A DNA stretch of 39,054 nucleotides from a virus. Taxonomy: Duplodnaviria; Heunggongvirae; Uroviricota; Caudoviricetes. The stretch lies in IMG/VR virus record IMGVR_UViG_2874945390_000007; one strand, 5' to 3'. Position numbers and translations under genes: made by a program. This document shows positions 1,651 through 39,054 of the stretch, piece by piece. The notes beneath the pieces were generated by a model. It saw only the letters and a list, made by a program, of their open reading frames with translations, did not search any database and was not told where the DNA came from. Positions within the stretch are counted from its first letter, which is position 1. The number at the start of each line of letters is the position of its first letter.

Positions 1651-1677
1651 GAAAAGAAAAAAGGCCGCAGAGCGGCC
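1651..1677 (-). terminator. intrinsic terminator (minus-strand sense)
   Basis: GC stem ggccgc/gcggcc at 1663..1677 followed on the minus strand by a U-run (complement of gaaaagaaaaaa at 1651..1662); lies 110 bp downstream of the int-distal cargo gene and upstream of btuC. Confidence 0.55.
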
Positions 1678-1786: not shown

Positions 1787-2224
1787 TCAGCCAACAAATT
1801 TAGCAACAAATACAGCAACCGCCGCTGTGAAAATGGTTGTGCACACTGGCACAATAATGCCACTCCAACGCCACTTCGTATTATCATCAACCTTGTCAAA
1901 CCGCCGATTCATCTCATCCATAATCTTGTCAAAGCGTTTATCCATCGCTTCGGTAAGCTCACCCTTCAGGCTGTTAATGTCTGATTTGAGCTGCTCTTTC
2001 AGGTTAGCTGTATCAGATTTAAGCTCACCTTTCAGATTCGCAATATCGCATTCAAGATCACCTTTCAGATGTGCTATGTCTGCTTTGAGTTCACCTTTCA
2101 CCTCACCAACATCGGCTTTAGTTGAGAGGTTTGTAGTGCGTTCAGCAAGCGTCGCAAGGTCGTTTCTTGTTAGCGATAAATCACCTTCGAGCCGCTCAAT
2201 TCGCCTTTCAAGTTTATCTGACAT
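1787..2224 (-). CDS. tail-anchored coiled-coil protein with 11-residue repeats and C-terminal transmembrane helix (phage accessory/moron gene)
   Basis: ORF 1787..2341; preferred start ATG at 2224 (MSDKLERRIERLEGDL...) preceded by GGAGG; repeats ...DIAHLKGDLEC DIANLKGELKS DTANLKEQLKS DINSLKGELTE...; hydrophobic C-terminus IIVPVCTTIFTAAVAVFVAKFVG. Confidence 0.6.
   Translation of the reverse strand: MSDKLERRIERLEGDLSLTRNDLATLAERTTNLSTKADVGEVKGELKADIAHLKGDLECDIANLKGELKSDTANLKEQLKSDINSLKGELTEAMDKRFDKIMDEMNRRFDKVDDNTKWRWSGIIVPVCTTIFTAAVAVFVAKFVG
1951..2112. repeat. about five imperfect 33-bp tandem repeats inside the coiled-coil gene
   Basis: Units such as ctgatttgagctgctctttcaggttagctgtat / cagatttaagctcacctttcagattcgcaatat / cgcattcaagatcacctttcagatgtgctatgt / ctgctttgagttcacctttcacctcaccaacat in head-to-tail array; period 33 bp = 11 codons. 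Confidence 0.8.
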
Positions 2225-2324
2225 TCCGCCTCCACTACTGCCGCCATCGCCACCATGATAAAGCACATCACGCTCAGAATGCGACACACTACCTGCTGAA
2301 TTACCGAAAAGATTTCTTGCTACA

Positions 2325-2825
2325 TTACCCATTATCACCATCCTGCGCTTTGTCTTTCTCCAACCACTTCAGCACCGCAGACGTACGATAAAGGCTCAGG
2401 TAACCACAATTCAGGCAATGCAGCGTGTAATAAGTTTTGCGCATATCAGGTATGCTCTTAACATCACCCAAAAAAGCATAAGATACATAATGCTTTATGT
2501 TCTCTTTAATTAACTCACTCTGTTCCTCCAGGGGTAGATTGTTAAAATTTTCTGGTTTCTTATTTTTATCCCAGCAAAGATCCATACTTTCTGGAACAGA
2601 TAATCGCGACGATCCACATGAAGGGCAGACACTGGAGACCCCCTTCTCAGACAAGAAACGGAAGAAGATTTCTGGCGTAATCTCCATCAGCCGCTCTTTA
2701 TGTTTTTTGACACGACTCATCGACTTCTTATTGATTTCATCAGCTTCTTCTTTGCATTTATCTTCTATATATTTCGATAGTAAATAGTCATATAACTCTT
2801 TTTTTGTAGGTTTTTTTATTTCCAT
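2325..2825 (-). CDS. hypothetical zinc-ribbon protein (two CxxC pairs), AT-rich cargo gene downstream of int
   Basis: 166-aa ORF MEIKKPTKKELYDYLLSKY... with CPSCG and CLNCG motifs; visibly AT-rich codon usage; start lies 3 nt after the int stop, same strand. Confidence 0.55.
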   Translation of the reverse strand: MEIKKPTKKELYDYLLSKYIEDKCKEEADEINKKSMSRVKKHKERLMEITPEIFFRFLSEKGVSSVCPSCGSSRLSVPESMDLCWDKNKKPENFNNLPLEEQSELIKENIKHYVSYAFLGDVKSIPDMRKTYYTLHCLNCGYLSLYRTSAVLKWLEKDKAQDGDNG

Positions 2826-2827
2826 AG

Positions 2828-3805
2828 TTACATTCCTCCCAAGGGATTAAACCTCACCGCATCCTGCAAGTAATCCGGCGCAAGATGGGCATAAATCATC
2901 GTTGTCTGAATCTTTGCGTGCCCCAGAATTTTCTGGAGCGTCAGAATATTGCCGCCGTTCATCATGAAATGACTGGCGAAGGTGTGGCGCAGCGCATGAA
3001 CAGCCTGGCCGTCAGGAACATCAGGTGCGACCGTTTTGATGACATCGCGAACCAATGAATAATCCAGCGTCGGAAACACCAGTTTCCCGCCCCGTTTTTT
3101 GATCTTTTCAAACAGGCTTTCAGAAATAGGAACGGTACGGTTTTTGCTGTTCTTCGTTTTTGAAAAAGTGATTCGACAATGAAGAACACGGCGCTGCTCC
3201 AGTGCCGCTACCTCGCCCCATCGCGCCCCGGTCGACAGAAGGATTTCGACGGCCAGCCGTTCATCGGGATTTTCAGCCAGTGCATCCAGCAACTGAACAC
3301 ATTCAGACTTACTCAGATATCCCATTTCACGCTCGTTAACCTTCATTCCTTTAAGGCCTTGAACGGGGTTATCGTTAAGAAAATGGCCGGATGAGATGAG
3401 TGCGGTAAACATCGCGCTTAACGCCCCAATCTCTCGATTTATGGTGCTGGGCTGTATCCCCTGCTCTATCCTGGACACACGTAGCTCGGTGAGCATCGTT
3501 GTATTAAGTTTATGCACGCACGGGTCATCCATTGCCTCACTCAAGCGCAGCAATTTAAGGCGCGTGTTATGCCCTGACTTCATTAGCTGGCCGTGGTATT
3601 TCCACCACAAGTCAATAAGCACTGACAGCGGACGGCGATCAATGGAGTTTCCTTTCCACTCATTGTTATGCTGTTGCGCCAGCACCCACCGCTCATATAA
3701 AACTGCATCCGATTTCGTTTTAAATTTTTTGCGAATGCGTTTGCCTTTACGCCCCTCAGGACGCATGTCAAGAAGATACCCTCCCGGAATTGATTTTATG
3801 CTCAT
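2828..3805 (-). CDS. int: P2-type tyrosine integrase
   Basis: ORF 2828..3955; start preferred at ATG 3805 (MSIKSIPGGYLLDMRPEGRKGKRIRKKF...) matching P2 Int N-terminus; conserved ...LSTGARWGEVA..., ...HALRHTFASHFMMNGGNILTLQKILGH...IYAH... catalytic region. Confidence 0.92.
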   Translation of the reverse strand: MSIKSIPGGYLLDMRPEGRKGKRIRKKFKTKSDAVLYERWVLAQQHNNEWKGNSIDRRPLSVLIDLWWKYHGQLMKSGHNTRLKLLRLSEAMDDPCVHKLNTTMLTELRVSRIEQGIQPSTINREIGALSAMFTALISSGHFLNDNPVQGLKGMKVNEREMGYLSKSECVQLLDALAENPDERLAVEILLSTGARWGEVAALEQRRVLHCRITFSKTKNSKNRTVPISESLFEKIKKRGGKLVFPTLDYSLVRDVIKTVAPDVPDGQAVHALRHTFASHFMMNGGNILTLQKILGHAKIQTTMIYAHLAPDYLQDAVRFNPLGGM

Positions 3806-3854
3806 TCGTGAAGCCCCAGCGTTACAAGACCACCATGCCCCCAGCGTTCCATGA

Positions 3855-4166
3855 TTAGCCGGGCTGTGTGCCAGTCTTGCGGGATTTTTGAGAAGACGAT
3901 GTGTTTTCTGGCCCATCAGGGGAGAGAGAAGGACTGATCTGCCCAGCAGCCTCATTTGTTTCGTTACTCATCAACCACGTAGTGTATTTTTTAAATTCCG
4001 GGTGCATTGTGATTTTCAGTAAAACCTCCGTTCCCACACCTCGAATACCAGTCTCGTATTGCTTAACCGTACCAACCGCAATACCTATTGAATCCGCGAA
4101 CTTTGCCTGACTAAGCCCCTCAGATTCTCGAATTGCTTTTAGCTTCTTTGATATCTCTATTGACAT
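3855..4166 (-). CDS. C: immunity repressor, P2 C-like
   Basis: ORF 3855..4268; start preferred at ATG 4166 (MSIEISKKLKAIRESEGLSQAKFADSIGIAVGTVKQYETG...) giving about 103 aa with N-terminal HTH and ...FKKYTTWLMSNE...GQISP... resembling P2 C; upstream of int on same strand. Confidence 0.8.
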   Translation of the reverse strand: MSIEISKKLKAIRESEGLSQAKFADSIGIAVGTVKQYETGIRGVGTEVLLKITMHPEFKKYTTWLMSNETNEAAGQISPSLSPDGPENTSSSQKSRKTGTQPG

Positions 4167-9499: not shown

Positions 9500-10459
9500 A
9501 TGAAAATTTGTATCGACGACGGCTCCACCAACATCAAGCTGGCATGGACTGAGAACGGCGAACGCCGCAACGCCATCAGCCCGAACAGCTTCAAGTCGGA
9601 ATGGTCTGCGCCGTTCGGTGGCATGCAGCCCGCGAACTACATGCTTGATGGCGTGCGCTATGGTTTTGATCCGGTCAGCGATCGCTTTGTCCAGACAACC
9701 GACACGCAATACCAGTACAGCGATGTAAATGTCATTGCCATTCATCACGCGCTGGTCAAATCAGGCATCACGCCACAGGAGGTGGATGTGGTTGTCACCC
9801 TGCCACTGAGCGAGTATTTCGACACAAACGCACAGCCGGACATGGCCAACATCAACCGCAAAAAAGCGAACGTTATGCGCCCGGTGGAGTACCAGAACGG
9901 CGAAGCATTCACTATCCGTAACGTGCGGGTTATGCCTGAATCCATTCCGGCTGGCTTTAAGGCACTGGCTGACATGAGTCCGTTTGAATCCCTGCTGATT
10001 GTGGATTTGGGCGGAACCACGCTGGATGTGGCAAAGGTTCAGGGGCAACTGGCAGGTATCAGCCAGGTGTTTTGCGATCCACACGTAGGCGTTTCTCTGA
10101 TGGCCGATGCCGTACTGTCGGTGATGGCCACTAACGGTATGCGCACCAGTCACCACATCGCCAATACCATTATCGAACATCGCCATGATGAAGCCTGGCT
10201 GCGCCAGCACATCCACAATGACGCGCATTACGCCAGCCTGATGGCGGTTATTCGTGAAAAGGAAGAAACACTGAAACAACGCGTGATCCGCGCGCTGGCG
10301 GGTTTTTCGGGTTACGGGCGGGTGATGGTTGTCGGTGGAGGGGCGGAGATTGTGGCACCCGCTATCCGCGAAGCCTGCGGAGTTAATGCGACTTTCATCG
10401 CGGACGGGGTGCCACAGTTTGCTCTGGTTAATGGGCTGTACGCAATGGACAAGGAGTAA
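9500..10459 (+). CDS. parM: ParM/StbA-like actin-type partition ATPase
   Basis: 319-aa ORF MKICIDDGSTNIKLAW...YSDVNVIAIHHAL...VMPESIPAG...LLIVDLGGTTLD...VMVVGGGAE... aligns along its length with plasmid R1 ParM (StbA); RBS AAGGAAAAG upstream. Confidence 0.85.
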   Translation: MKICIDDGSTNIKLAWTENGERRNAISPNSFKSEWSAPFGGMQPANYMLDGVRYGFDPVSDRFVQTTDTQYQYSDVNVIAIHHALVKSGITPQEVDVVVTLPLSEYFDTNAQPDMANINRKKANVMRPVEYQNGEAFTIRNVRVMPESIPAGFKALADMSPFESLLIVDLGGTTLDVAKVQGQLAGISQVFCDPHVGVSLMADAVLSVMATNGMRTSHHIANTIIEHRHDEAWLRQHIHNDAHYASLMAVIREKEETLKQRVIRALAGFSGYGRVMVVGGGAEIVAPAIREACGVNATFIADGVPQFALVNGLYAMDKE

Positions 10460-26197: not shown

Positions 26198-26731
26198 TCA
26201 TTCTGGTTGTTCGGGAAACGTTACTGGCAGGCTGGAGGTGTCTGTGGATTCGACCTTCTGCGCATAGAGCATCCACTCGGTTAATTTTTGTTTATTCTCG
26301 TCGGAAATAATGCCCAGCCGTAGCTGTGAGTCCCATAGCTGGGTTTTATCCCTGACGAGCTGTAGCAGGCTTTGCTTTTCATTTTCCGCTTGTTGCCTCT
26401 GCTCTTCCCCGGTATAAGTTCGCTTTATCACTACGCCATCTTTGAACATCCATTTACCTGAAATATCAGCCCGGCGATTTGCTGTAATATCAGGAACCTC
26501 AACGACGCTTGCGCCTTCCGGATTAATTGCTGAAACATCCTTTTCAATACAAATAATAACGCCGTTGTGGTCATAGACCATTTTCAACGTATCAGGCTGA
26601 AAGTTCTTTTGTTCCTCATACCAGTTTTTCCCATCCTCTGTATAAAGCCATTTGATGTTAAATTGTTTCGTTAGCTGGTATTGCTCTTTTGTTTCAGGAT
26701 TACCAGCAGAAATGTTTTTTAAGTGCATCAT
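26198..26731 (-). CDS. alternative tail fibre assembly chaperone (Tfa'), silent-orientation copy
   Basis: 177-aa [43 protein letters not shown]... paralogous to the plus-strand Tfa with divergent C-terminus. Confidence 0.85.
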   Translation of the reverse strand: MMHLKNISAGNPETKEQYQLTKQFNIKWLYTEDGKNWYEEQKNFQPDTLKMVYDHNGVIICIEKDVSAINPEGASVVEVPDITANRRADISGKWMFKDGVVIKRTYTGEEQRQQAENEKQSLLQLVRDKTQLWDSQLRLGIISDENKQKLTEWMLYAQKVESTDTSSLPVTFPEQPE

Positions 26732-26733
26732 CG

Positions 26734-27678
26734 TTAAATACTCCCCGCGTTATACCACGTCCCATTAATGCAATACTGAATTGGCCTTGCCTGAGTTGTA
26801 TCAATTAGTTCATCTCTGTTTGAGTTAACGGAACCGGTAACAACATAACCTGACCTGTCAGACCATCCGGGACCATTCCATGTCTGAACAGATAACAGAC
26901 CACCAAGGCGAATACCTGTAATAAACCTTGAGTTACATTCTGCCTGCGTATATGCACCAACATCTCCCGCAGAGGGTTTGCGGGTTGTGGTGTAAAACTC
27001 TGACCAGTCAGCTTCAAAGCCATAACCATCACGCGCTGAACGATAAAAAATACCGCCGTTCCTGTAATTCACGCGGAACTGTACAGCAGGGCAGCTCCCC
27101 GTATTCATATTGAAGTGGAGGATTAATGTCGATGCGCCACCAATGTTTGCGTTATAGACCCCGCTATTCCAGTTCCAGCCAACAGCTTTATCATTTCCGA
27201 CAGTGCTTCCTGTTTGCCCTAAAGCAAATGCAGGTTGTTGATTTTTCGTGTTGTAGTCTCGTCGCCAGCCAGGAGCGTAAGCATCACCATGATTAATATA
27301 AGTGAATTGAGCGTTAGTAATTCCGCCACCGCTGGACGTGCTCGGCGTGGTAACGCGTATGGTCATTGCGCCGCGAGTGCCAATAACTTCCACCACAGCA
27401 CCTGCAAGACAAATATTTCCGCAACCTGTATCTGTAATGACCTTATTATTTGCATAAGCCCATGAGCCTTTGCACATCCAGTAAGGATGGTTAAATGCTC
27501 CCTGACTCTCCAGCCACGAAATAAATTGCGCGGTTGTCCAGACCTGACTATCGCCACCAATATTCAGCCATGAGCTATATGCGCGGCAGGCACCAATATT
27601 TTTGGTGAAGGTATCTTTCCCCGGAATATCTGCGCCGTTCTGGTTTTTCTGTAATGCGCCAGAAGCCTGATTTACCGT
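26734..27678 (-). other. alternative tail-fibre C-terminal cassette (H variable part, silent orientation; no own start)
   Basis: Minus-strand frame ...LQETVNQASGALQKN...CINGTWYNAGSI is collinear with the H region after the crossover site but has a different receptor-binding C-terminus; ORF-track N-terminal extension to 27834 reads through the crossover site into the IS and is not a real start. Confidence 0.8.
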
Positions 27679-27704
27679 TTCCTGTAAACCGAGGTTTGAG
27701 GTGT
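27679..27704. repeat. right crossover site for DNA invertase (gix/pix-like)
   Basis: ttcctgtaaaccgaggtttgaggtgt; inner half-site identical to left site in inverted orientation, outer half-site more degenerate. Confidence 0.75.
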
Positions 27705-27739
27705 ACTGGCAATAGCGGACACTACCATTTGTTCTTTTT

Positions 27740-28558
27740 TTAAGCAGCCATCTGATGATATTTTTCCCTGAAGGCTGCCGGGGAGATATTCCCCAGACGA
27801 GAGTGACGACGCTGACGATTGTAGAAAATCTCAATGTATTCCCGTATTACTGAGATGGCTTCATCCCGGTTATTAAAACGATAGTGGCTCAGGCTCTCAT
27901 TTTTCAGCGTTCCCCAGAAGCTTTCCATCGGAGCGTTGTCGTAACAGTTACCTTTACGCGACATTGATGTTTTCAGACCAAACTGCTCCTGTATGACCCG
28001 GTAATCGTATGCGCAGTACTGTGAACCTCGATCAGAGTGGTGGATTAGCCCGGCAGGTGGGCGCTGGCTCCTGAGCGCCATAAACAGGGCTTTACCTGTC
28101 AGCTCTTTTGTCATGCGCTCTCCCATGGCGTAGCCGACAATTTCGCACGTATAAACATCTTTGATGCCAGCGAGGTACAACCATCCCTCCTGTGTGGCAA
28201 CATACGTCAGGTCCGCCACCCAGACCTGATTTGGTGCTGTAGGAGCGAACGTCTGGTTCAGCAGATTTGGCGCAACTGGCAGATTGTGGTTCGAGTTCGT
28301 AGTCGCTCTGAACTTGCGTTTCTGCTTACAGCGTAGCCTTAGCTCCTTACGAAGACGTGCCAGTCGGTCACGACCAACGATGATGCCATTCTCTGCCAGC
28401 TCCGTCTGGAGCCGCCGGGTTCCATATGTTTCGCGAGTGCGGATATGTGCCACCTTAATCTCCAGTTTTAGCCGCTCATCACTTTGTTTTCTGTCTGAGG
28501 GTTCATGCTGTACCCAGTTGTAATAACCGCTCCTGGATACACCAAATACCTGACACAT
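27740..28558 (-). CDS. IS3-family transposase OrfB (catalytic DDE domain; expressed as OrfAB fusion by -1 frameshift)
   Basis: 272-aa ORF with ...VWVADLTYV...GWLYLAGIKDVYT...HHSDRGSQY...CYDNAPMESFWGTLK... typical IS3 OrfB. Confidence 0.9.
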   Translation of the reverse strand: MCQVFGVSRSGYYNWVQHEPSDRKQSDERLKLEIKVAHIRTRETYGTRRLQTELAENGIIVGRDRLARLRKELRLRCKQKRKFRATTNSNHNLPVAPNLLNQTFAPTAPNQVWVADLTYVATQEGWLYLAGIKDVYTCEIVGYAMGERMTKELTGKALFMALRSQRPPAGLIHHSDRGSQYCAYDYRVIQEQFGLKTSMSRKGNCYDNAPMESFWGTLKNESLSHYRFNNRDEAISVIREYIEIFYNRQRRHSRLGNISPAAFREKYHQMAA

Positions 28559-28593
28559 CGCTTCAATGGGAAATTGTTGTCGCCATTGTTCGA

Positions 28594-28896
28594 TTAACGC
28601 GTATTTTTCAGCGACTCCTGTGCAAAATACGCTGTTGCTTTTTTTAATATATCTCGCTCAAGGCGAGCTTCATTTAACGCCTTACGCAGTTGCAGAATTT
28701 CAGATTCCAGTTCAGCCACCGTGCGGGAACCAGGAGTACCGAGCCCTTTTCTGGCGGCGGTAACCCATTGTCCTAAAGTGCCTTCAGGAAGAGATAATCG
28801 GGAAGCGCCTTCACTGATCGAAAGTTGATTTTCAAGAACCGTTCTGACAGCTTCGGCTTTGAACTCTTTAGAGTAACGTTGGGTTTTTCTGCTCAT
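28594..28896 (-). CDS. IS3-family transposase OrfA (HTH/leucine zipper)
   Basis: 100-aa ORF MSRKTQRYSKEFKAEAVRTVLENQLSISEGA...; slippery TTA AAA AAA GCA near its 3' end (complement of 28638..28649). Confidence 0.9.
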   Translation of the reverse strand: MSRKTQRYSKEFKAEAVRTVLENQLSISEGASRLSLPEGTLGQWVTAARKGLGTPGSRTVAELESEILQLRKALNEARLERDILKKATAYFAQESLKNTR

Positions 28897-29025
28897 TATT
28901 AGCTCCTTCTGATGCCATTCTATTTCAGGAAGGAGTGTCCGTTAAACTCAGGCTACCTCAGTTTTAGATAATGGCCGTTTCCGGCCTGCATGGCATGATT
29001 TGCGCTTTTGGACGGGAGATTCAGC

Positions 29026-29613
29026 GTGCTGATTGGCTATGTAAGGGTATCAACAAATGACCAGAATACAGACCTGCAACGAAACGCTCTTGTTTGTGCA
29101 GGATGTGAACAAATATTTGAAGATAAATTAAGCGGGACAAAGACAGACCGACCGGGATTAAAACGCGCTTTAAAGCGCCTTCAAAAAGGTGACACGCTGG
29201 TTGTCTGGAAACTGGATCGCCTCGGGCGAAGCATGAAACATCTGATTTCTCTCGTCGGGGAACTACGGGAGCGAGGAATTAATTTTCGCAGTCTGACCGA
29301 CAGCATAGATACATCTTCTCCAATGGGGCGTTTTTTCTTCCACGTGATGGGTGCCCTGGCTGAAATGGAACGTGAATTAATTGTTGAACGTACACTGGCC
29401 GGACTGGCGGCAGCACGCGCACGGGGGCGCACAGGCGGACGTCGACCGAAGCTGACAAAAGAACAGCATGAGCAAATAGCAAGGCTGATCAAAAACGGGC
29501 ACGACAGAAAACAACTGGCAATAATTTACGGCATTGGTATATCGACGATTTATCGTTACCACCCCGCAGGAGAATCAATCGGAACAATAGAGAAGAGTCA
29601 GGAAACAAAATAA
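29026..29613 (+). CDS. pin: serine DNA invertase, Pin/Gin/Hin/Cin family
   Basis: ORF 29008..29613 (TTG); preferred GTG start 29026 giving (M)LIGYVRVSTNDQNTDLQRNAL...LVVWKLDRLGRSMKHL...GINFRSLTDSIDTSSPMGRFFFHVMGALAEMERELIVERT... nearly collinear with e14 Pin; catalytic Ser in YVRVST. Confidence 0.92.
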   Translation: MLIGYVRVSTNDQNTDLQRNALVCAGCEQIFEDKLSGTKTDRPGLKRALKRLQKGDTLVVWKLDRLGRSMKHLISLVGELRERGINFRSLTDSIDTSSPMGRFFFHVMGALAEMERELIVERTLAGLAAARARGRTGGRRPKLTKEQHEQIARLIKNGHDRKQLAIIYGIGISTIYRYHPAGESIGTIEKSQETK

Positions 29614-36716: not shown

Positions 36717-38219
36717 ATGAACAAAAAGCTGTATTTATTCCCAGACTCAAACATTTTTCTACAATGCAAGGACTTGACGCAGGTAAATTTTTCCGAGATT
36801 ACTGCTTGTGATGAAGTATGTATCATTATTACAAGGCCCATTCAGCAAGAGATTGACCGCCAGAAAGGGCAAGGTAATTCCCGCCTATCCAAAAAAGCAA
36901 GGAAGGCTGCTAGCCTATTTAATCAAGTAGTTGATTCAACTGACATGACTCTTGTTATTCGTGAACGCTCGCCGCGAGTTTTTCTTACCATGGATCTAAG
37001 CCTGAAACCATGTGAACAGTTATCTGAACAATTGGATTATCAGGAGGCCGACGATCGTTTTGTTGGTATTGCGGCAGGGTATTGCGCTGACGATCCAGAT
37101 TCGGAGGTGGCAATCATTACCAATGATAGCGGTCCACGTTTTTCAGCAATAAAACATAATATAATCTGCTATAAAGTGCCTTCTTCATGGTTGCTTCCTG
37201 CTGAGCCAGATGAAAAGGATAAACAAATTAAATTGCTGGAAGCTAAGCTGAAGCAATTCACTCAGTCTATGCCCGATTTCAGCATTAAAGTAGCCGATGA
37301 CGAGCAATTAAATATTGTACTTCCTTATTATACAGCTTTATCTGAATATGAAGTTGATAATTTGCTTTGTCAACTAACGGATGCATTCCCATTGGTTACA
37401 AACTTTGACAATGAACAAACTACCCCACAATCACTAGAAAAAATCATCAAGTCATTTAGTCAACAGGAGTATTTCCCTGTATCAGCAGATGATATTTCTC
37501 TTTATAAAGAAAAACATTATCCACTTTGGAAAAAGCAGTGTGAAGAAATACTGAAAAACTGTCATACTCATATTAATCCGAAGGCAATAAATTACCCGCT
37601 GTCGTTTTTATTACAAAACACAGGTTATACTATCGCTGAACGTGCTGTGGTAACATTTACAGCAAAAGGAGATTTTCGTCTGTGTGGATTTAATTGGGAG
37701 ATAATGGAAGAGCTGACTGAAAGCAAAAGGATTGACCTACCTTCAGCCCCTACCGCCCCCAAAGGAAAATGGCGTAGTGTATGTGGCGTAACAGAAAGAA
37801 TGCCTTACGCTGGGGGAGCTTTGGAAACACCGCTATCCAGTATAATTTCAAAAGAAATTGGTCCTTTGTTATCTCTTACTCCAACAGAAAGGGATAAAAA
37901 CGATTTTTATTATAAAGAAAAGAGAAATGAGCCAGTTCAAGTTGTATCGCTGGAATGCGAAGAGTGGCGTCATCAAGTCAAAGAAGAAATATTCCCGTTG
38001 TTCGTATATACAGCCAACAAACCAAAGAAAGTGAATGGTGCAATTGAGGTGAGAGTTGATGCAAATAACCTTACCAATCCGGTCATTAAAACATTTAAAT
38101 TAAAAATAACTATAGAAGAACATAGTGCATTTTCAACCATAACAGAAATGGTGCAGACATACATTCAAGAGCAGAAGAAAAGACAGAAAAGTTCTATTAG
38201 CGCACAAATCAAAACATGA
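36717..38219 (+). CDS. PIN-like nuclease domain protein (N-terminal PIN fold, about 350-aa C-terminal region of unknown function); candidate defence gene
   Basis: 500-aa ORF; N-terminus MNKKLYLFPDSNIFLQ... (first acidic residue), ...QQEIDRQ..., ...DDRFVGIAAGY..., ...VAIITNDSGP... fit the four-acidic-residue PIN pattern; visibly AT-rich relative to flanking D and ogr; AT-rich promoter-like upstream region with TTGATA hexamers. Confidence 0.6.
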   Translation: MNKKLYLFPDSNIFLQCKDLTQVNFSEITACDEVCIIITRPIQQEIDRQKGQGNSRLSKKARKAASLFNQVVDSTDMTLVIRERSPRVFLTMDLSLKPCEQLSEQLDYQEADDRFVGIAAGYCADDPDSEVAIITNDSGPRFSAIKHNIICYKVPSSWLLPAEPDEKDKQIKLLEAKLKQFTQSMPDFSIKVADDEQLNIVLPYYTALSEYEVDNLLCQLTDAFPLVTNFDNEQTTPQSLEKIIKSFSQQEYFPVSADDISLYKEKHYPLWKKQCEEILKNCHTHINPKAINYPLSFLLQNTGYTIAERAVVTFTAKGDFRLCGFNWEIMEELTESKRIDLPSAPTAPKGKWRSVCGVTERMPYAGGALETPLSSIISKEIGPLLSLTPTERDKNDFYYKEKRNEPVQVVSLECEEWRHQVKEEIFPLFVYTANKPKKVNGAIEVRVDANNLTNPVIKTFKLKITIEEHSAFSTITEMVQTYIQEQKKRQKSSISAQIKT

Positions 38220-38462: not shown

Positions 38463-38723
38463 ATGTTCCGTTGTCCGCTTTGTGGCGCATCTGCCCGTAT
38501 CCGCACCAGTCGTCCGGAAAATGATTCAAACACCGTGCGGCAAAAGTATTACCAGTGTAACAATCTGGAATGCGGCGTATGCTTCTCAACACTGGAAGCT
38601 TTCCATAAATTCACATCAAAACACGCCTCCGGCGTTCACTCTTCAGAAGATATCCCGTGGCATGATCTGCCAGCTTCACACAGGGGAAACAATCAGATGA
38701 GCTTGCCTTTACCTCAGAATTAA
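38463..38723 (+). CDS. ogr: late gene transcriptional activator, Ogr/Delta zinc-finger family
   Basis: 86-aa ORF MFRCPLCGASARIRTSRPENDSNTVRQKYYQCNNLECGVCFSTLEAFHKF... with CxxC...CxxxxC as in P2 Ogr. Confidence 0.9.
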   Translation: MFRCPLCGASARIRTSRPENDSNTVRQKYYQCNNLECGVCFSTLEAFHKFTSKHASGVHSSEDIPWHDLPASHRGNNQMSLPLPQN

Positions 38724-38783
38724 CAGGCAGAATTGCCGGAGTAACAAAAAAGCGATAGATTACGCGCGGGTGCCTTTCGGCTG

Positions 38784-38996
38784 ATGGTCGGAGGGAATAC
38801 CCGAAGGCCAGATGTGGAAAGGCCCCGGAAAACATCTCTGTTTAACCGAGGCCCTAACCGCATTACCTTGACAAGTGAAAGGTTAGCGCCTCTCCGGAAA
38901 AGGAGCAAGTGCTATGTCGCAAAAATCGCTTACGACCATCACGTTCTGCGTGACGGCAATCCTCATCATCTGGATGTTGCACGGTTCGCTGTGTGA
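38784..38996 (+). CDS. possible Mok-like overlapping reading frame
   Basis: 70-aa ORF overlapping the hok-like start in another frame, same size class as R1 mok; support is positional only. Confidence 0.3.
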   Translation: MVGGNTRRPDVERPRKTSLFNRGPNRITLTSERLAPLRKRSKCYVAKIAYDHHVLRDGNPHHLDVARFAV

Positions 38997-39054
38997 AATA
39001 CGGATGAGCTTCTGGGGAGCGGAGTTTGCGGCGTTCTTACAGTGTAAGCAGTAA
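38914..39054 (+). CDS. Hok/Gef-family type I toxin (46 aa), not in ORF track
   Basis: ATG 38914 with AGGAG upstream; translation MSQKSLTTITFCVTAILIIWMLHGSLCEIRMSFWGAEFAAFLQCKQ has TM helix plus SLCEIR and AAFL motifs shared with Hok/HokA; stop codon is the last 3 nt of the window. Confidence 0.7.
   Translation: MSQKSLTTITFCVTAILIIWMLHGSLCEIRMSFWGAEFAAFLQCKQ

What the first reader, a model, noticed from the sequence alone, without database searches (positions are those of the whole stretch)
38724..39054. Hok/Mok-like type I toxin locus immediately after ogr at the right edge
A 46-aa ORF (38914..39054) has the Hok family signature: one TM helix, SLCEIR and AAFL motifs. A 70-aa frame overlaps its start, as mok does in hok/sok loci. 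This is not a known chromosomal hok position and follows the last recognisable prophage gene, so it may be prophage cargo (addiction or abortive-infection module). The antisense Sok-like RNA and fold-back elements could not be delineated by eye, and the locus may continue beyond the window.
Basis: partly seen in the sequence, partly recalled or inferred. Interest (0 to 1): 0.45.

Follow-up and report, generated by a model that had tools for sequence, protein, structure and literature searches.

The report
Known hok/Sok toxin–antitoxin in P2-like prophage
The small gene at the right edge of the window is a real but ordinary member of the well-known Hok/Sok family of RNA-controlled membrane toxins, carried as cargo at the end of a P2-like (P88-type) prophage of E. 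coli and already annotated and catalogued.

Summary
The 46-aa ORF at 38914..39054 passes Pfam HOK_GEF (29 bits, cut-off 22). The leader at 38768..38927 matches Rfam RF01794 'sok' (E 1e-9, below the gathering score).

The window is E. coli DNA, 100% identical to O111:H- 11128 and other genomes. RefSeq already calls this gene 'Hok/Gef family protein', and the locus occurs in 1525 of 5426 complete E. coli genomes. P88-type phages carry it after ogr.

The locus lies inside the prophage. attL is at 1653-1677, and attR lies about 265 bp past the window end, next to ihfA. The mRNA runs about 70-125 nt beyond the window. There, a 3' element pairs with the 5' end, and this tac/fbi-like helix shows compensatory changes in 17 homologues. 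An antisense promoter and a 60-nt hairpin RNA resembling Sok are conserved.

A 2026 preprint places this protein type in Hok cluster 72 and found a one-residue variant toxic.

The one deviation is the 70-aa 'mok' frame. It is not conserved even in 95%-identical relatives, so mok-coupled translation is doubtful for this clade.

Verdict: already known, low interest.

The parts
38463..38723 (+). ogr (late-gene activator zinc-finger protein), the last phage gene before the toxin module
   Evidence: Pfam Ogr_Delta, 52.3 bits. RefSeq annotation.
38733..38761 (+). Inferred weak promoter of the hok mRNA: -35 TTGCCG (38733-38738), 17-nt spacer, -10 TAGATT (38756-38761)
   Evidence: Read from the sequence. 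The -10 is conserved as TAGATT/TAGAAT 6 nt upstream of GGGTGCC in 18 homologous loci. It matches 8 of 12 consensus positions, below the threshold of the automatic scan, which found none. This is an inference.
38768..38781 (+). Inferred 5' end of the hok mRNA, the tac-like element GGGUGCCUUUCGGC. It pairs with a 3' fbi-like element that lies beyond the window (L001 5906-5921, equivalent to window 39105-39120)
   Evidence: The Rfam model starts here. The MFE fold of the 353-nt RNA closes the 5' end with the 3' end (-157.9 kcal/mol, z -6.8). RNAalifold on 17 loci predicts the same helix. 96.8% of cells are paired against 24-50% when the partner is slid, and 4 pairs show compensatory changes.
38768..38927 (+). 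hok mRNA leader matching Rfam RF01794 ('sok') over its full length. The match is on the hok-sense strand
   Evidence: 48.4 bits, E 1.2e-9, gathering score 59, model positions 1-157 of 157.
38784..38996 (+). 70-aa mok-like overlapping frame (-1 register relative to hok). It is present in this allele but not conserved in relatives
   Evidence: ORF list. In P88, the 933W copy and most Salmonella, Klebsiella and Citrobacter loci the frame is closed 13-43 nt upstream of hok, and no ATG/GTG/TTG uORF crosses the hok SD.
38816..38876 (-). Inferred Sok-like antisense RNA (~60 nt): a variable 5' tail, then the hairpin GGCCUCGG...CCGGGGCC followed by UUUCC
   Evidence: Fold -27.4 kcal/mol, z -4.7. The hairpin is conserved in 12 loci with 3 compensatory pairs. 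The ends are inferred, not mapped.
38880..38908 (-). Inferred Sok promoter on the minus strand: -35 TTGCTC (38908-38903), 17-nt spacer, -10 TAACCT (38885-38880)
   Evidence: Read from the sequence. The plus-strand AGGTTA/AGGATA and GAGCAA/AGTAAA blocks are conserved in all 18 loci. Not found by the consensus scan. The resemblance to the R1 Sok promoter (TTGCGC-17-TATCCT) is recalled from memory.
38848..38892 (+). Sok-target hairpin of the processed mRNA (GAGGC...GCCUC). It contains the GAGG that is the mok SD in R1, plus a hypervariable loop
   Evidence: It forms in the fold of the 3'-truncated RNA, where the 5' element re-pairs with GGAAAGGCCCC. The base of the stem is invariant and there is little covariation.
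38902..38905 (+). hok Shine-Dalgarno GGAG, sequestered by the upstream CCUCUCC
   Evidence: Sequence. The predicted unpaired probability is ~0 in full-length RNA.
38914..39054 (+). hok-family toxin gene (46 aa; Hok cluster 72 of Escalera-Maurer et al.)
   Evidence: Pfam HOK_GEF, 29 bits against a cut-off of 22. phrog_251, E 1e-22. RefSeq WP_000078923.1 'Hok/Gef family protein'. 39% identity to R1 Hok over 31 aa. Variation is highest at third codon positions: 38/22/57 for positions 1/2/3. The one-residue variant 72_1621 was tested for toxicity.
1653..1677 (.). attL core, a 25-bp direct repeat AAAGAAAAAAGGCCGCAGAGCGGCC. Its attR copy lies beyond the window at L001 6120-6144 (equivalent to window 39319-39343), just downstream of ihfA
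   Evidence: It is the only exact repeat of at least 11 nt between the left 6 kb of the window and the 345 nt after hok. The flanks are btuE/btuC on the left and ihfA-pheT-pheS on the right.

Best explanation
This is a hok/Sok-type type I toxin-antitoxin module carried as accessory cargo at the right end of a P88-type (Xuanwuvirus, Peduoviridae) prophage. The prophage is integrated between btuC and ihfA in E. coli.

The proposed mechanism is as follows.
- A weak promoter just after ogr makes a ~350-410-nt mRNA that starts at 38768.
- In the full-length RNA, the 5' end (tac-like) pairs with a 3' element (fbi-like) about 65 nt past the window edge. This locks the RNA in an inert fold with the hok Shine-Dalgarno buried.
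- Slow 3' trimming back to a stable hairpin releases the 5' end, which re-pairs with an internal GGAAAGGCCCC box. That exposes a target hairpin for the antisense RNA.
- A ~60-nt Sok-like RNA, transcribed from the opposite strand (about 38876 to 38816), pairs with that hairpin and keeps the mRNA silent or gets it degraded.
- If Sok supply stops (loss of the element, a transcription block, or prophage induction), the stable mRNA is translated into a 46-aa single-pass membrane peptide that damages the inner membrane.

Shown here: family membership of the protein, homology of the leader to the Rfam model, the conserved and covarying 5'-3' helix, the conserved antisense hairpin, and the location inside the prophage.

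Taken from the literature: toxicity of a one-residue variant, and the R1 and hokW-sokW mechanisms.

Inferred: both promoters, the RNA ends, the processing, and the biological role (prophage stabilisation, exclusion of other phages, or help with lysis on induction).
For: Protein:
- Pfam HOK_GEF above its cut-off and phrog_251 at E 1e-22.
- 70 homologues, all named Hok/Gef.
- BLASTP to R1 Hok gives 39% identity over the TM-SLCEIR-AAF core.

RNA:
- Rfam RF01794 matches full length at E 1e-9.
- MFE of the 353-nt RNA is -157.9 kcal/mol, z -6.8, with a 5'-3' closing helix.
- The same helix appears in the consensus fold of 17 loci from E. coli, E. albertii, Salmonella, Klebsiella, Citrobacter and phages. 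It is 96.8% paired, has 4 compensatory pairs, and no shuffle (0 of 500) reaches the observed covariation score.
- The truncated RNA refolds into a tac/ucb-like helix plus the target hairpin.
- The antisense hairpin RNA has z -4.7 and is conserved.

Context:
- 100% identity to E. coli chromosomes where the gene is annotated Hok/Gef.
- The same locus lies after ogr in phage P88 and relatives.
- The gpD-ogr-hok order recurs in Salmonella P2-like prophages at other integration sites.
- The attL/attR repeat brackets the locus.

Literature:
- Cluster 72 constructs 72_1621 (T8A relative to this protein) and 72_1589 were among 45 tested homologues, of which only three others were non-toxic.
- hok is enriched in prophages.
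- hokW-sokW in prophage Sp5 works as a type I TA system.
Against: - The Rfam score (48.4) is below the family's gathering score (59).
- The consensus promoter scan found no sigma-70 site on either strand. Both promoters rest on alignment and on likeness to R1.
- No transcript ends are mapped for this locus.
- The mok frame needed for hok translation in R1 is not conserved in this clade, so one step of the R1 mechanism may not apply.
- The modelled opening of the hok SD after 3' truncation is small, 0-0.31 unpaired probability.
- The exact protein of the window (T8) was not itself tested.
- The biological role is not addressed by any data here.
Confidence: 0.9

Rival explanations
1. This is a mok-independent variant of hok/Sok. 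In this 46-aa clade, hok translation is not coupled to an overlapping leader ORF. The antisense RNA would control hok through RNA structure alone: by displacing the GAGGC:GCCUC stem so that CCUCUCC re-captures the hok SD, by blocking a ribosome standby site, or by RNase III cleavage.
For: In 8 of 18 homologous loci no ATG/GTG/TTG uORF reaches the hok SD. In several loci the -1 frame is closed only 13 nt upstream of hok. P88, about 95% identical to the window in this region, has no mok. In thermodynamic models the hok SD opens slightly after 3' truncation and closes again when the Sok target is blocked, in about 10 of 14 loci. The dcb-like GCCUC overlaps the anti-SD. The recent Hok survey states that it did not analyse mok.
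Against: The window's own allele does have an open -1 frame with ATG, GTG and TTG candidates. Non-canonical starts cannot be excluded. The modelled SD opening is small (at most 0.31). The R1 data show that mok translation is mandatory there. No experiment exists for this clade.
Confidence: 0.4
2. This is a decayed, non-functional hok relic, like several K-12 chromosomal hok loci, kept only by hitch-hiking with the prophage.
For: Many chromosomal hok copies are known to be inactivated (established knowledge). The Rfam score is below gathering. There is no consensus promoter.
Against: The ORF is intact and 46 aa long in essentially all homologues, with 14 invariant residues. Third-position variation is in excess. 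All RNA elements are conserved with compensatory changes. The locus is present in 1525 genomes at 80-100% identity. A near-identical peptide was toxic in the preprint's assay.
Confidence: 0.05
3. The role differs from plasmid-type addiction. The module may mainly serve the phage at induction, as reported for hokW-sokW in Sp5 (earlier lysis, about 2-fold more progeny). Alternatively it may serve the host as an abortive-infection or exclusion device against other phages, as reported for R1 hok/sok against T4.
For: Takada et al. 2021 report that sokW disappears and HokW is made after mitomycin C in a RecA-dependent way, and that progeny halve without the locus. The same paper cites the R1 hok/sok effect on T4. 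The module sits in a conserved slot next to attR in P2-like prophages.
Against: hokW is a different Hok cluster (51 aa, cluster 35 type) in a lambdoid phage. Nothing here tests any of these roles. PADLOC has no model that hits the peptide.
Confidence: 0.3

Closest known systems
hok/sok (parB) of plasmid R1, the type I toxin-antitoxin paradigm
   Same: - A single-pass Hok/Gef peptide with the LCEIR and AAF core.
- A leader homologous to the Rfam model.
- A 5'-3' fold-back (tac/fbi) helix.
- Refolding of the 3'-shortened RNA into a tac/ucb-like helix plus a target hairpin.
- A short antisense RNA with a 5' tail and a terminal hairpin, transcribed from a promoter inside the leader.
- A stable hairpin after the stop codon, then the fbi element, then a terminator.
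   Different: - 46 aa rather than 52 aa, with an N-terminus MSQK and a conserved second Cys near the C-terminus.
- Only 39% identity over 31 aa.
- The Rfam score is below gathering.
- The overlapping mok frame is not conserved in this clade, whereas it is mandatory in R1.
- Carried by a prophage, not a plasmid.
Hok cluster 72 of Escalera-Maurer et al. (bioRxiv 10.1101/2025.08.07.668861), constructs 72_1621 and 72_1589
   Same: 72_1621 is this protein with one substitution (T8A). 72_1589 is identical to the copy downstream of lom in phage 933W. The cluster is labelled 'HAC' in Table S2, read here as one of the abundant clusters. Its members were in the tested set, in which only three other constructs were non-toxic.
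   Different: The exact T8 variant was not tested. The survey analysed only the coding sequence, not Sok, mok or the mRNA fold.
hokW-sokW of Stx2 prophage Sp5 / 933W (Takada et al. 2021, PMC8621323)
   Same: A prophage-borne hok/Sok module shown to be a working type I TA system. Phage annotation pipelines name the present gene after it: 'MokW-like host killing', phrog_251.
   Different: HokW is a 51-aa peptide (MKQQKAM...) of another cluster. It is a different locus from the 83%-identical copy of the present module that the same Stx phages carry, unannotated, downstream of lom.
The locus in phage P88 and other Xuanwuvirus phages (NC_026014 gp52)
   Same: The DNA is 95-97% identical from ogr through hok, in the same position at the genome end next to the attachment site.
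   Different: P88 lacks the 500-aa PIN-domain gene that sits between gpD and ogr in the window. Its variable Sok-target loop differs, and it has no mok-like frame.

Membership tests
Hok/Gef toxin family (Pfam PF01848) | The protein matches the family HMM above the curated gathering score | tested here: met
   29.0 bits against a cut-off of 22, residues 9-44 on profile positions 7-42 of 42. phrog_251 at E 1e-22. The NCBIfam HokA equivalog and Hok subfamily models hit only below their cut-offs (34 against 89, and 21.6 against 73). So it is a Hok/Gef family member but not HokA or an R1-type Hok.
Hok/Gef toxin family (Pfam PF01848) | A small (~50 aa) peptide with one N-terminal transmembrane helix and the conserved L-C-E motif | tested here: met
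   46 aa, with a hydrophobic stretch at residues 6-23 and L26-C27-E28. C27 and E28 are invariant and L26 nearly invariant (at least 90%) in 26 homologues. These correspond to L30/C31/E32 of the published logo. The TM helix is judged by eye, not by a predictor.
Hok/Gef toxin family (Pfam PF01848) | Toxic to the cell when expressed | not testable with these tools
   Literature only. Construct 72_1621 (T8A variant) and 72_1589 were in the 45 tested homologues, and the three non-toxic ones were other constructs.
[quoted passage not shown] | hok mRNA leader homologous in sequence and structure to known hok/sok loci | tested here: inconclusive
   Rfam RF01794 matches full length at 48.4 bits, E 1.2e-9, but below the gathering score of 59.
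[quoted passage not shown] | Long-range 5'-3' pairing (tac/fbi) that locks the full-length mRNA | tested here: met
   A 13-15-bp helix appears in the single-sequence MFE fold and in the consensus fold of 17 loci. 96.8% of cells are paired against 24-50% in slid controls, with 4 compensatory pairs. The 3' arm lies outside the window (L001 5906-5921).
[quoted passage not shown] | A cis-encoded short antisense RNA (Sok) with its own promoter, complementary to the leader | tested here: inconclusive
   Conserved -35/-10-like hexamers with 17-nt spacing on the minus strand. A conserved hairpin RNA, z -4.7, with 3 compensatory pairs. However, the consensus promoter scan found nothing and no transcript data were available.
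[quoted passage not shown] | An overlapping mok leader ORF whose translation is needed for hok translation | tested here: inconclusive
   A 70-aa frame in the right register exists in this allele. It has no SD at its ATG, and it is absent or closed in P88, the 933W copy and most other homologues. In 8 of 18 loci no canonical uORF reaches the hok SD. The feature is not met as a conserved trait of the clade.
[quoted passage not shown] | 3' processing to a translatable, Sok-binding truncated mRNA with a refolded 5' end (tac/ucb, SD/dcb) | tested here: inconclusive
   In-silico refolding of the RNA cut after the 3' hairpin gives a tac-GGAAAGGCCCC helix and the GAGGC/GCCUC target hairpin. The target hairpin shows almost no covariation. 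Processing itself is not testable here.
Prophage cargo (moron) of P2-like phages | Lies inside the att-bounded element, is separate from the phage structural and regulatory operons, and is variably present among related phages | tested here: met
   The 25-bp attL/attR repeat brackets it. It has its own promoter and terminator. It is present after ogr in P88-type phages and in Salmonella P2-like prophages at different integration sites. Related copies also occur in Stx phages and on some plasmids.

The most novel reading that the evidence does not exclude
The 46-aa Hok clade (cluster 72), including this locus, may be a naturally mok-less hok/Sok lineage. In it, the antisense RNA would control toxin translation purely through an RNA structural switch or a standby-site block, rather than through a coupled leader ORF. 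The GAGG that serves as the mok SD in R1 would be retained only as one arm of the Sok-target hairpin, which competes with the hok anti-SD.
Probability: 0.35. Interest if true: 0.35.

Novelty: already known. Interest (0 to 1): 0.12.

Why it matters
It matters little as a discovery. The gene is routinely annotated, belongs to a catalogued and experimentally sampled Hok cluster, and sits in a known type of prophage.

It is useful for annotating the window. It marks the right end of the prophage, shows that the element extends about 290 bp beyond the window to attR beside ihfA, and explains the non-coding stretch after ogr.

The only point with some research value is that this abundant clade lacks a conserved mok frame. 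If confirmed, the textbook mok-coupling step would not be universal in the hok/Sok family, and this locus would be a convenient natural test case.

Tried and rejected
- **Locus search with the single peptide.** An alignment query then returned only 7 loci, three of them labelled as unlikely hosts (a Planococcaceae MAG, Vagococcus, Xanthomonas pisi), probably contamination.
- **Promoter scan.** The consensus scan found no sigma-70 site on either strand. The promoters therefore rest on conservation and on likeness to R1.
- **Rfam.** No family other than RF01794 gave a credible hit. The C/D-box snoRNA hits at E 2-9 were dismissed as chance.
- **PADLOC.** No model hits the peptide or the neighbouring PIN protein.
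- **NCBIfam.** The HokA and Hok subfamily models hit only below their cut-offs, so HokA identity was rejected.
- **Search for a conserved leader ORF.** I looked in all frames with ATG, GTG and TTG and found none. By eye, non-canonical AUU/AUA starts near the conserved GAGG are not conserved either.
- **Anti-anti-SD switch.** Base-pair probabilities gave the right direction but a small effect, so this is left as a hypothesis.
- **Covariation in the Sok-target hairpin.** It is almost invariant, so the test is uninformative.
- **Literature.** Two candidate papers on prophage transcriptomics and 'grounded' prophages contained nothing on this locus. The Salmonella TraDIS paper likewise had nothing.

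Full report
**What is in the sequence.** The window ends with ogr (38463..38723; Pfam Ogr_Delta, 52 bits). A 190-nt non-coding stretch follows, then a 46-aa ORF at 38914..39054 whose stop codon is the last triplet of the window. The peptide is MSQKSLTTITFCVTAILIIWMLHGSLCEIRMSFWGAEFAAFLQCKQ. A 70-aa frame at 38784..38996 overlaps the ORF start.

**Is it more than chance?** Yes, on several counts:
- The peptide passes Pfam HOK_GEF (29.0 bits, cut-off 22) and matches phrog_251 'MokW-like host killing' at E 1e-22.
- It aligns with R1 Hok at 39% identity over the TM-LCEIR-AAF core.
- A search of the large protein collection returned 70 relatives from E. coli, Shigella, Salmonella and Klebsiella. 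Nearly all are 46 aa, and every named one is called Hok/Gef. Fourteen residues are invariant, including C27, E28 and a second cysteine, C44.
- Variation among 17 aligned loci is highest at third codon positions in the hok frame (38/22/57 for positions 1/2/3).
- The leader at 38768..38927 matches Rfam RF01794 ('sok') over the whole model at E 1.2e-9. At 48.4 bits it is below the gathering score of 59.

The Rfam match is on the hok-sense strand. It therefore covers the hok leader, from its 5' end to the hok start codon, rather than the antisense RNA itself.

**Where the window comes from, and what lies beyond it.**
- The last 855 nt are 100% identical to many E. coli chromosomes (O111:H- 11128, O26, O111 and others). 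RefSeq annotates the three genes there as a PIN-domain protein, an ogr/Delta-like protein and 'Hok/Gef family protein' WP_000078923.1.
- The 431-nt hok locus alone occurs at 80% coverage or more in 1525 of 5426 complete E. coli genomes, always annotated Hok/Gef.
- In strain 11128 the next genes are ihfA, pheT and pheS. The left end of the window carries btuE and btuC.
- A 25-bp direct repeat (AAAGAAAAAAGGCCGCAGAGCGGCC) lies at window 1653-1677 and again 265 nt past the window end, at L001 6120-6144. It is the only such repeat, and I take it as attL/attR. The hok locus is therefore inside the prophage, next to attR.
- Phage P88 and other Xuanwuvirus (Peduoviridae) phages carry the same ogr-hok stretch at 95-97% identity, annotated 'MokW-like host killing'.
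- Salmonella P2-like prophages show the same gpD-ogr-hok order at several different integration sites.
- Stx phages such as 933W carry an 83%-identical copy downstream of lom, unannotated in the original 933W record (AF125520).

**RNA anatomy.** I used the flanking sequence from strain 11128 (L001; window position = L001 position + 33199).
- *Fold-back helix.* The element GCCGGAUAAGGCACCC at L001 5906-5921 is complementary to the 5' end GGGUGCCUUUCGGC at window 38768-38781. The 353-nt RNA between them folds to -157.9 kcal/mol (z -6.8), with these ends forming the closing helix.
- *Conservation of the helix.* I aligned 17 distinct full-length loci from E. coli, E. albertii, Salmonella, Klebsiella oxytoca, Citrobacter braakii, P88 and 933W. 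RNAalifold predicts the same helix. Pair counting gives 96.8% paired cells against 24-50% when the partner is slid. Four pairs show compensatory changes (for example CGGC/GCCG in E. coli against CGAC/GUCG in Salmonella), and no shuffle of 500 reaches the observed covariation score. This is the tac/fbi fold-back that defines hok mRNAs.
- *3' UTR layout.* After the stop codon come a stable hairpin (L001 5866-5887), the fbi-like element, then a terminator (L001 5943-5970). As I recall the R1 sequence, the order there is the same.
- *Refolding.* Cutting the RNA after the 3' hairpin makes the 5' end re-pair with an internal GGAAAGGCCCC box. The hairpin GAGGC...GCCUC (window 38848-38892) then forms. 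This is the analogue of the tac/ucb and SD/dcb state of R1 (background).
- *Antisense RNA.* On the minus strand, conserved hexamers TTGCTC and TAACCT (17-nt spacing; window 38908-38903 and 38885-38880) precede a ~60-nt RNA. The RNA has a variable 5' tail and a conserved GC-rich hairpin followed by UUUCC (z -4.7; three compensatory pairs in 12 loci).
- *Specificity region.* The hypervariable segment of the alignment coincides with the 5' tail of this RNA and the loop of its target. That is what one expects of a specificity determinant where several paralogous loci coexist. Tandem copies occur in Salmonella, and some E. coli genomes have up to 7 places.
- *Promoters.* The sense promoter is inferred as TTGCCG-17-TAGATT (38733-38761), with a conserved -10. 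Neither promoter reaches the threshold of the automatic scan, so both remain inferences.

**The mok frame.** In R1, translation of mok up to the hok SD is mandatory for hok translation (PMC9841398). The window's 70-aa frame is in the same -1 register. However, its ATG lies in the tac element without an SD, and the frame is not conserved. In P88, the 933W copy and most Salmonella, Klebsiella and Citrobacter loci it is closed 13-43 nt upstream of hok. In 8 of 18 loci no ATG/GTG/TTG uORF in any frame reaches the hok SD. The recent Hok survey explicitly left mok unanalysed.

I modelled whether the structure alone could do the job. The hok SD is fully paired in the full-length RNA. It opens slightly after truncation (0-0.31) and closes again when the Sok target is blocked. 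The direction is right in most loci, but the effect is small. I therefore treat mok coupling as unproven for this clade, and a mok-independent switch as a hypothesis with about 35-40% probability.

**What is already known.**
- Escalera-Maurer et al. (bioRxiv 10.1101/2025.08.07.668861) catalogued 32,532 hok loci and found hok in about 80% of Enterobacteriaceae genomes, with enrichment in prophages.
- Their Table S2 lists cluster 72, labelled 'HAC' (which I read as a high-abundance cluster), with two tested constructs. 72_1621 is this protein with T8A, and 72_1589 is identical to the 933W copy. The text states that 42 of 45 tested homologues were toxic and names three other constructs as the non-toxic ones.
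- Takada et al. 2021 (PMC8621323) showed that a different prophage module, hokW-sokW of Sp5, is a working type I TA system and helps phage release after induction.

**Mechanism and role.** The best-supported mechanism is the R1-type one. The full-length mRNA is inert and locked by the 5'-3' helix. Slow 3' trimming and refolding make it competent, and an unstable antisense RNA then silences or destroys it. The membrane toxin is released when antisense supply fails. The fold-back helix, the antisense hairpin and family membership are shown here. The promoters, RNA ends, processing and the way Sok blocks translation are inferred. The biological role cannot be decided from sequence. The candidates are prophage retention, exclusion of other phages, or aid to lysis as for hokW-sokW.

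**Verdict.** This is a genuine, intact and ordinary hok/Sok module carried as cargo of a P88-type prophage. It is already annotated, catalogued and, in a one-residue variant, experimentally sampled. Novelty: already known. Interest: low (0.12). The only loose end with some value is the absence of a conserved mok frame in this abundant clade.

Noticed in passing
window 36717-38219 (+): A 500-aa protein with an N-terminal PIN_4 domain (Pfam, 33.9 bits) sits between the tail gene D and ogr. Phage P88 lacks it: P88 similarity starts only at about window 38419. Only 59 E. coli genomes share the stretch that spans the end of this gene through hok at 80% coverage or more. It has no PADLOC or NCBIfam hit. 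It looks like a second cargo gene, possibly a nuclease-based defence candidate.
   Followed up: partly
window 1787-2825 (-): Two small ORFs (184 aa, coiled-coil-like, phrog_9415; and 166 aa, phrog_4293, unknown function) lie between attL and the integrase (2828-3955). They sit at the other prophage end, opposite hok across the att site, and may be further cargo.
   Followed up: partly
window 26198-29613: This looks like an invertible tail-fibre segment: an alternative tail-fibre C-terminus (gp37_C) and an assembly protein on the minus strand, with a Resolvase-type DNA invertase at 29008-29613. An IS3-family insertion appears to interrupt it (HTH_Tnp_1 orfA at 28594-28896 and rve orfB at 27740-28558). 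The prophage may be impaired in host-range switching, or defective.
   Followed up: partly
window 9500-10459 (+): A ParM/StbA actin-like plasmid-segregation protein (Pfam StbA_N, 275 bits, plus the ParM C-terminal domain) is encoded inside this integrated P2-like prophage. That is an unexpected partition-type function for an integrating phage.
   Followed up: no
L003 1521-1875 (phage 933W AF125520, ~45511-45865): Stx phages (933W, Sp5/VT2-Sakai and many others) carry an 83%-identical copy of this 46-aa hok locus just downstream of lom. It is a second locus, distinct from the studied hokW-sokW, and is unannotated in the original 933W record (and in several other Stx-phage records: 'none' under the match). 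Experiments that delete hokW-sokW alone leave it in place.
   Followed up: partly
L017 801-941 and 1291-1431; L018 801-941 and 1295-1435 (Salmonella enterica contigs): Tandem pairs of 46-aa hok loci lie about 490 nt apart. Their Sok-target loops differ, consistent with diversification to avoid cross-talk.
   Followed up: no
L001 6064-6220 (-), beyond the window: Rfam STnc540 (43 bits, above the gathering score of 38) overlaps the ihfA 3' end and terminator, which is also the att core of this prophage.
   Followed up: no
L004, L006, L008 (genome contigs): Near-identical E. coli-type hok loci appear in assemblies labelled Planococcaceae MAG, Vagococcus sp. and Xanthomonas pisi. These are most likely contaminating enterobacterial contigs.
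   Followed up: no
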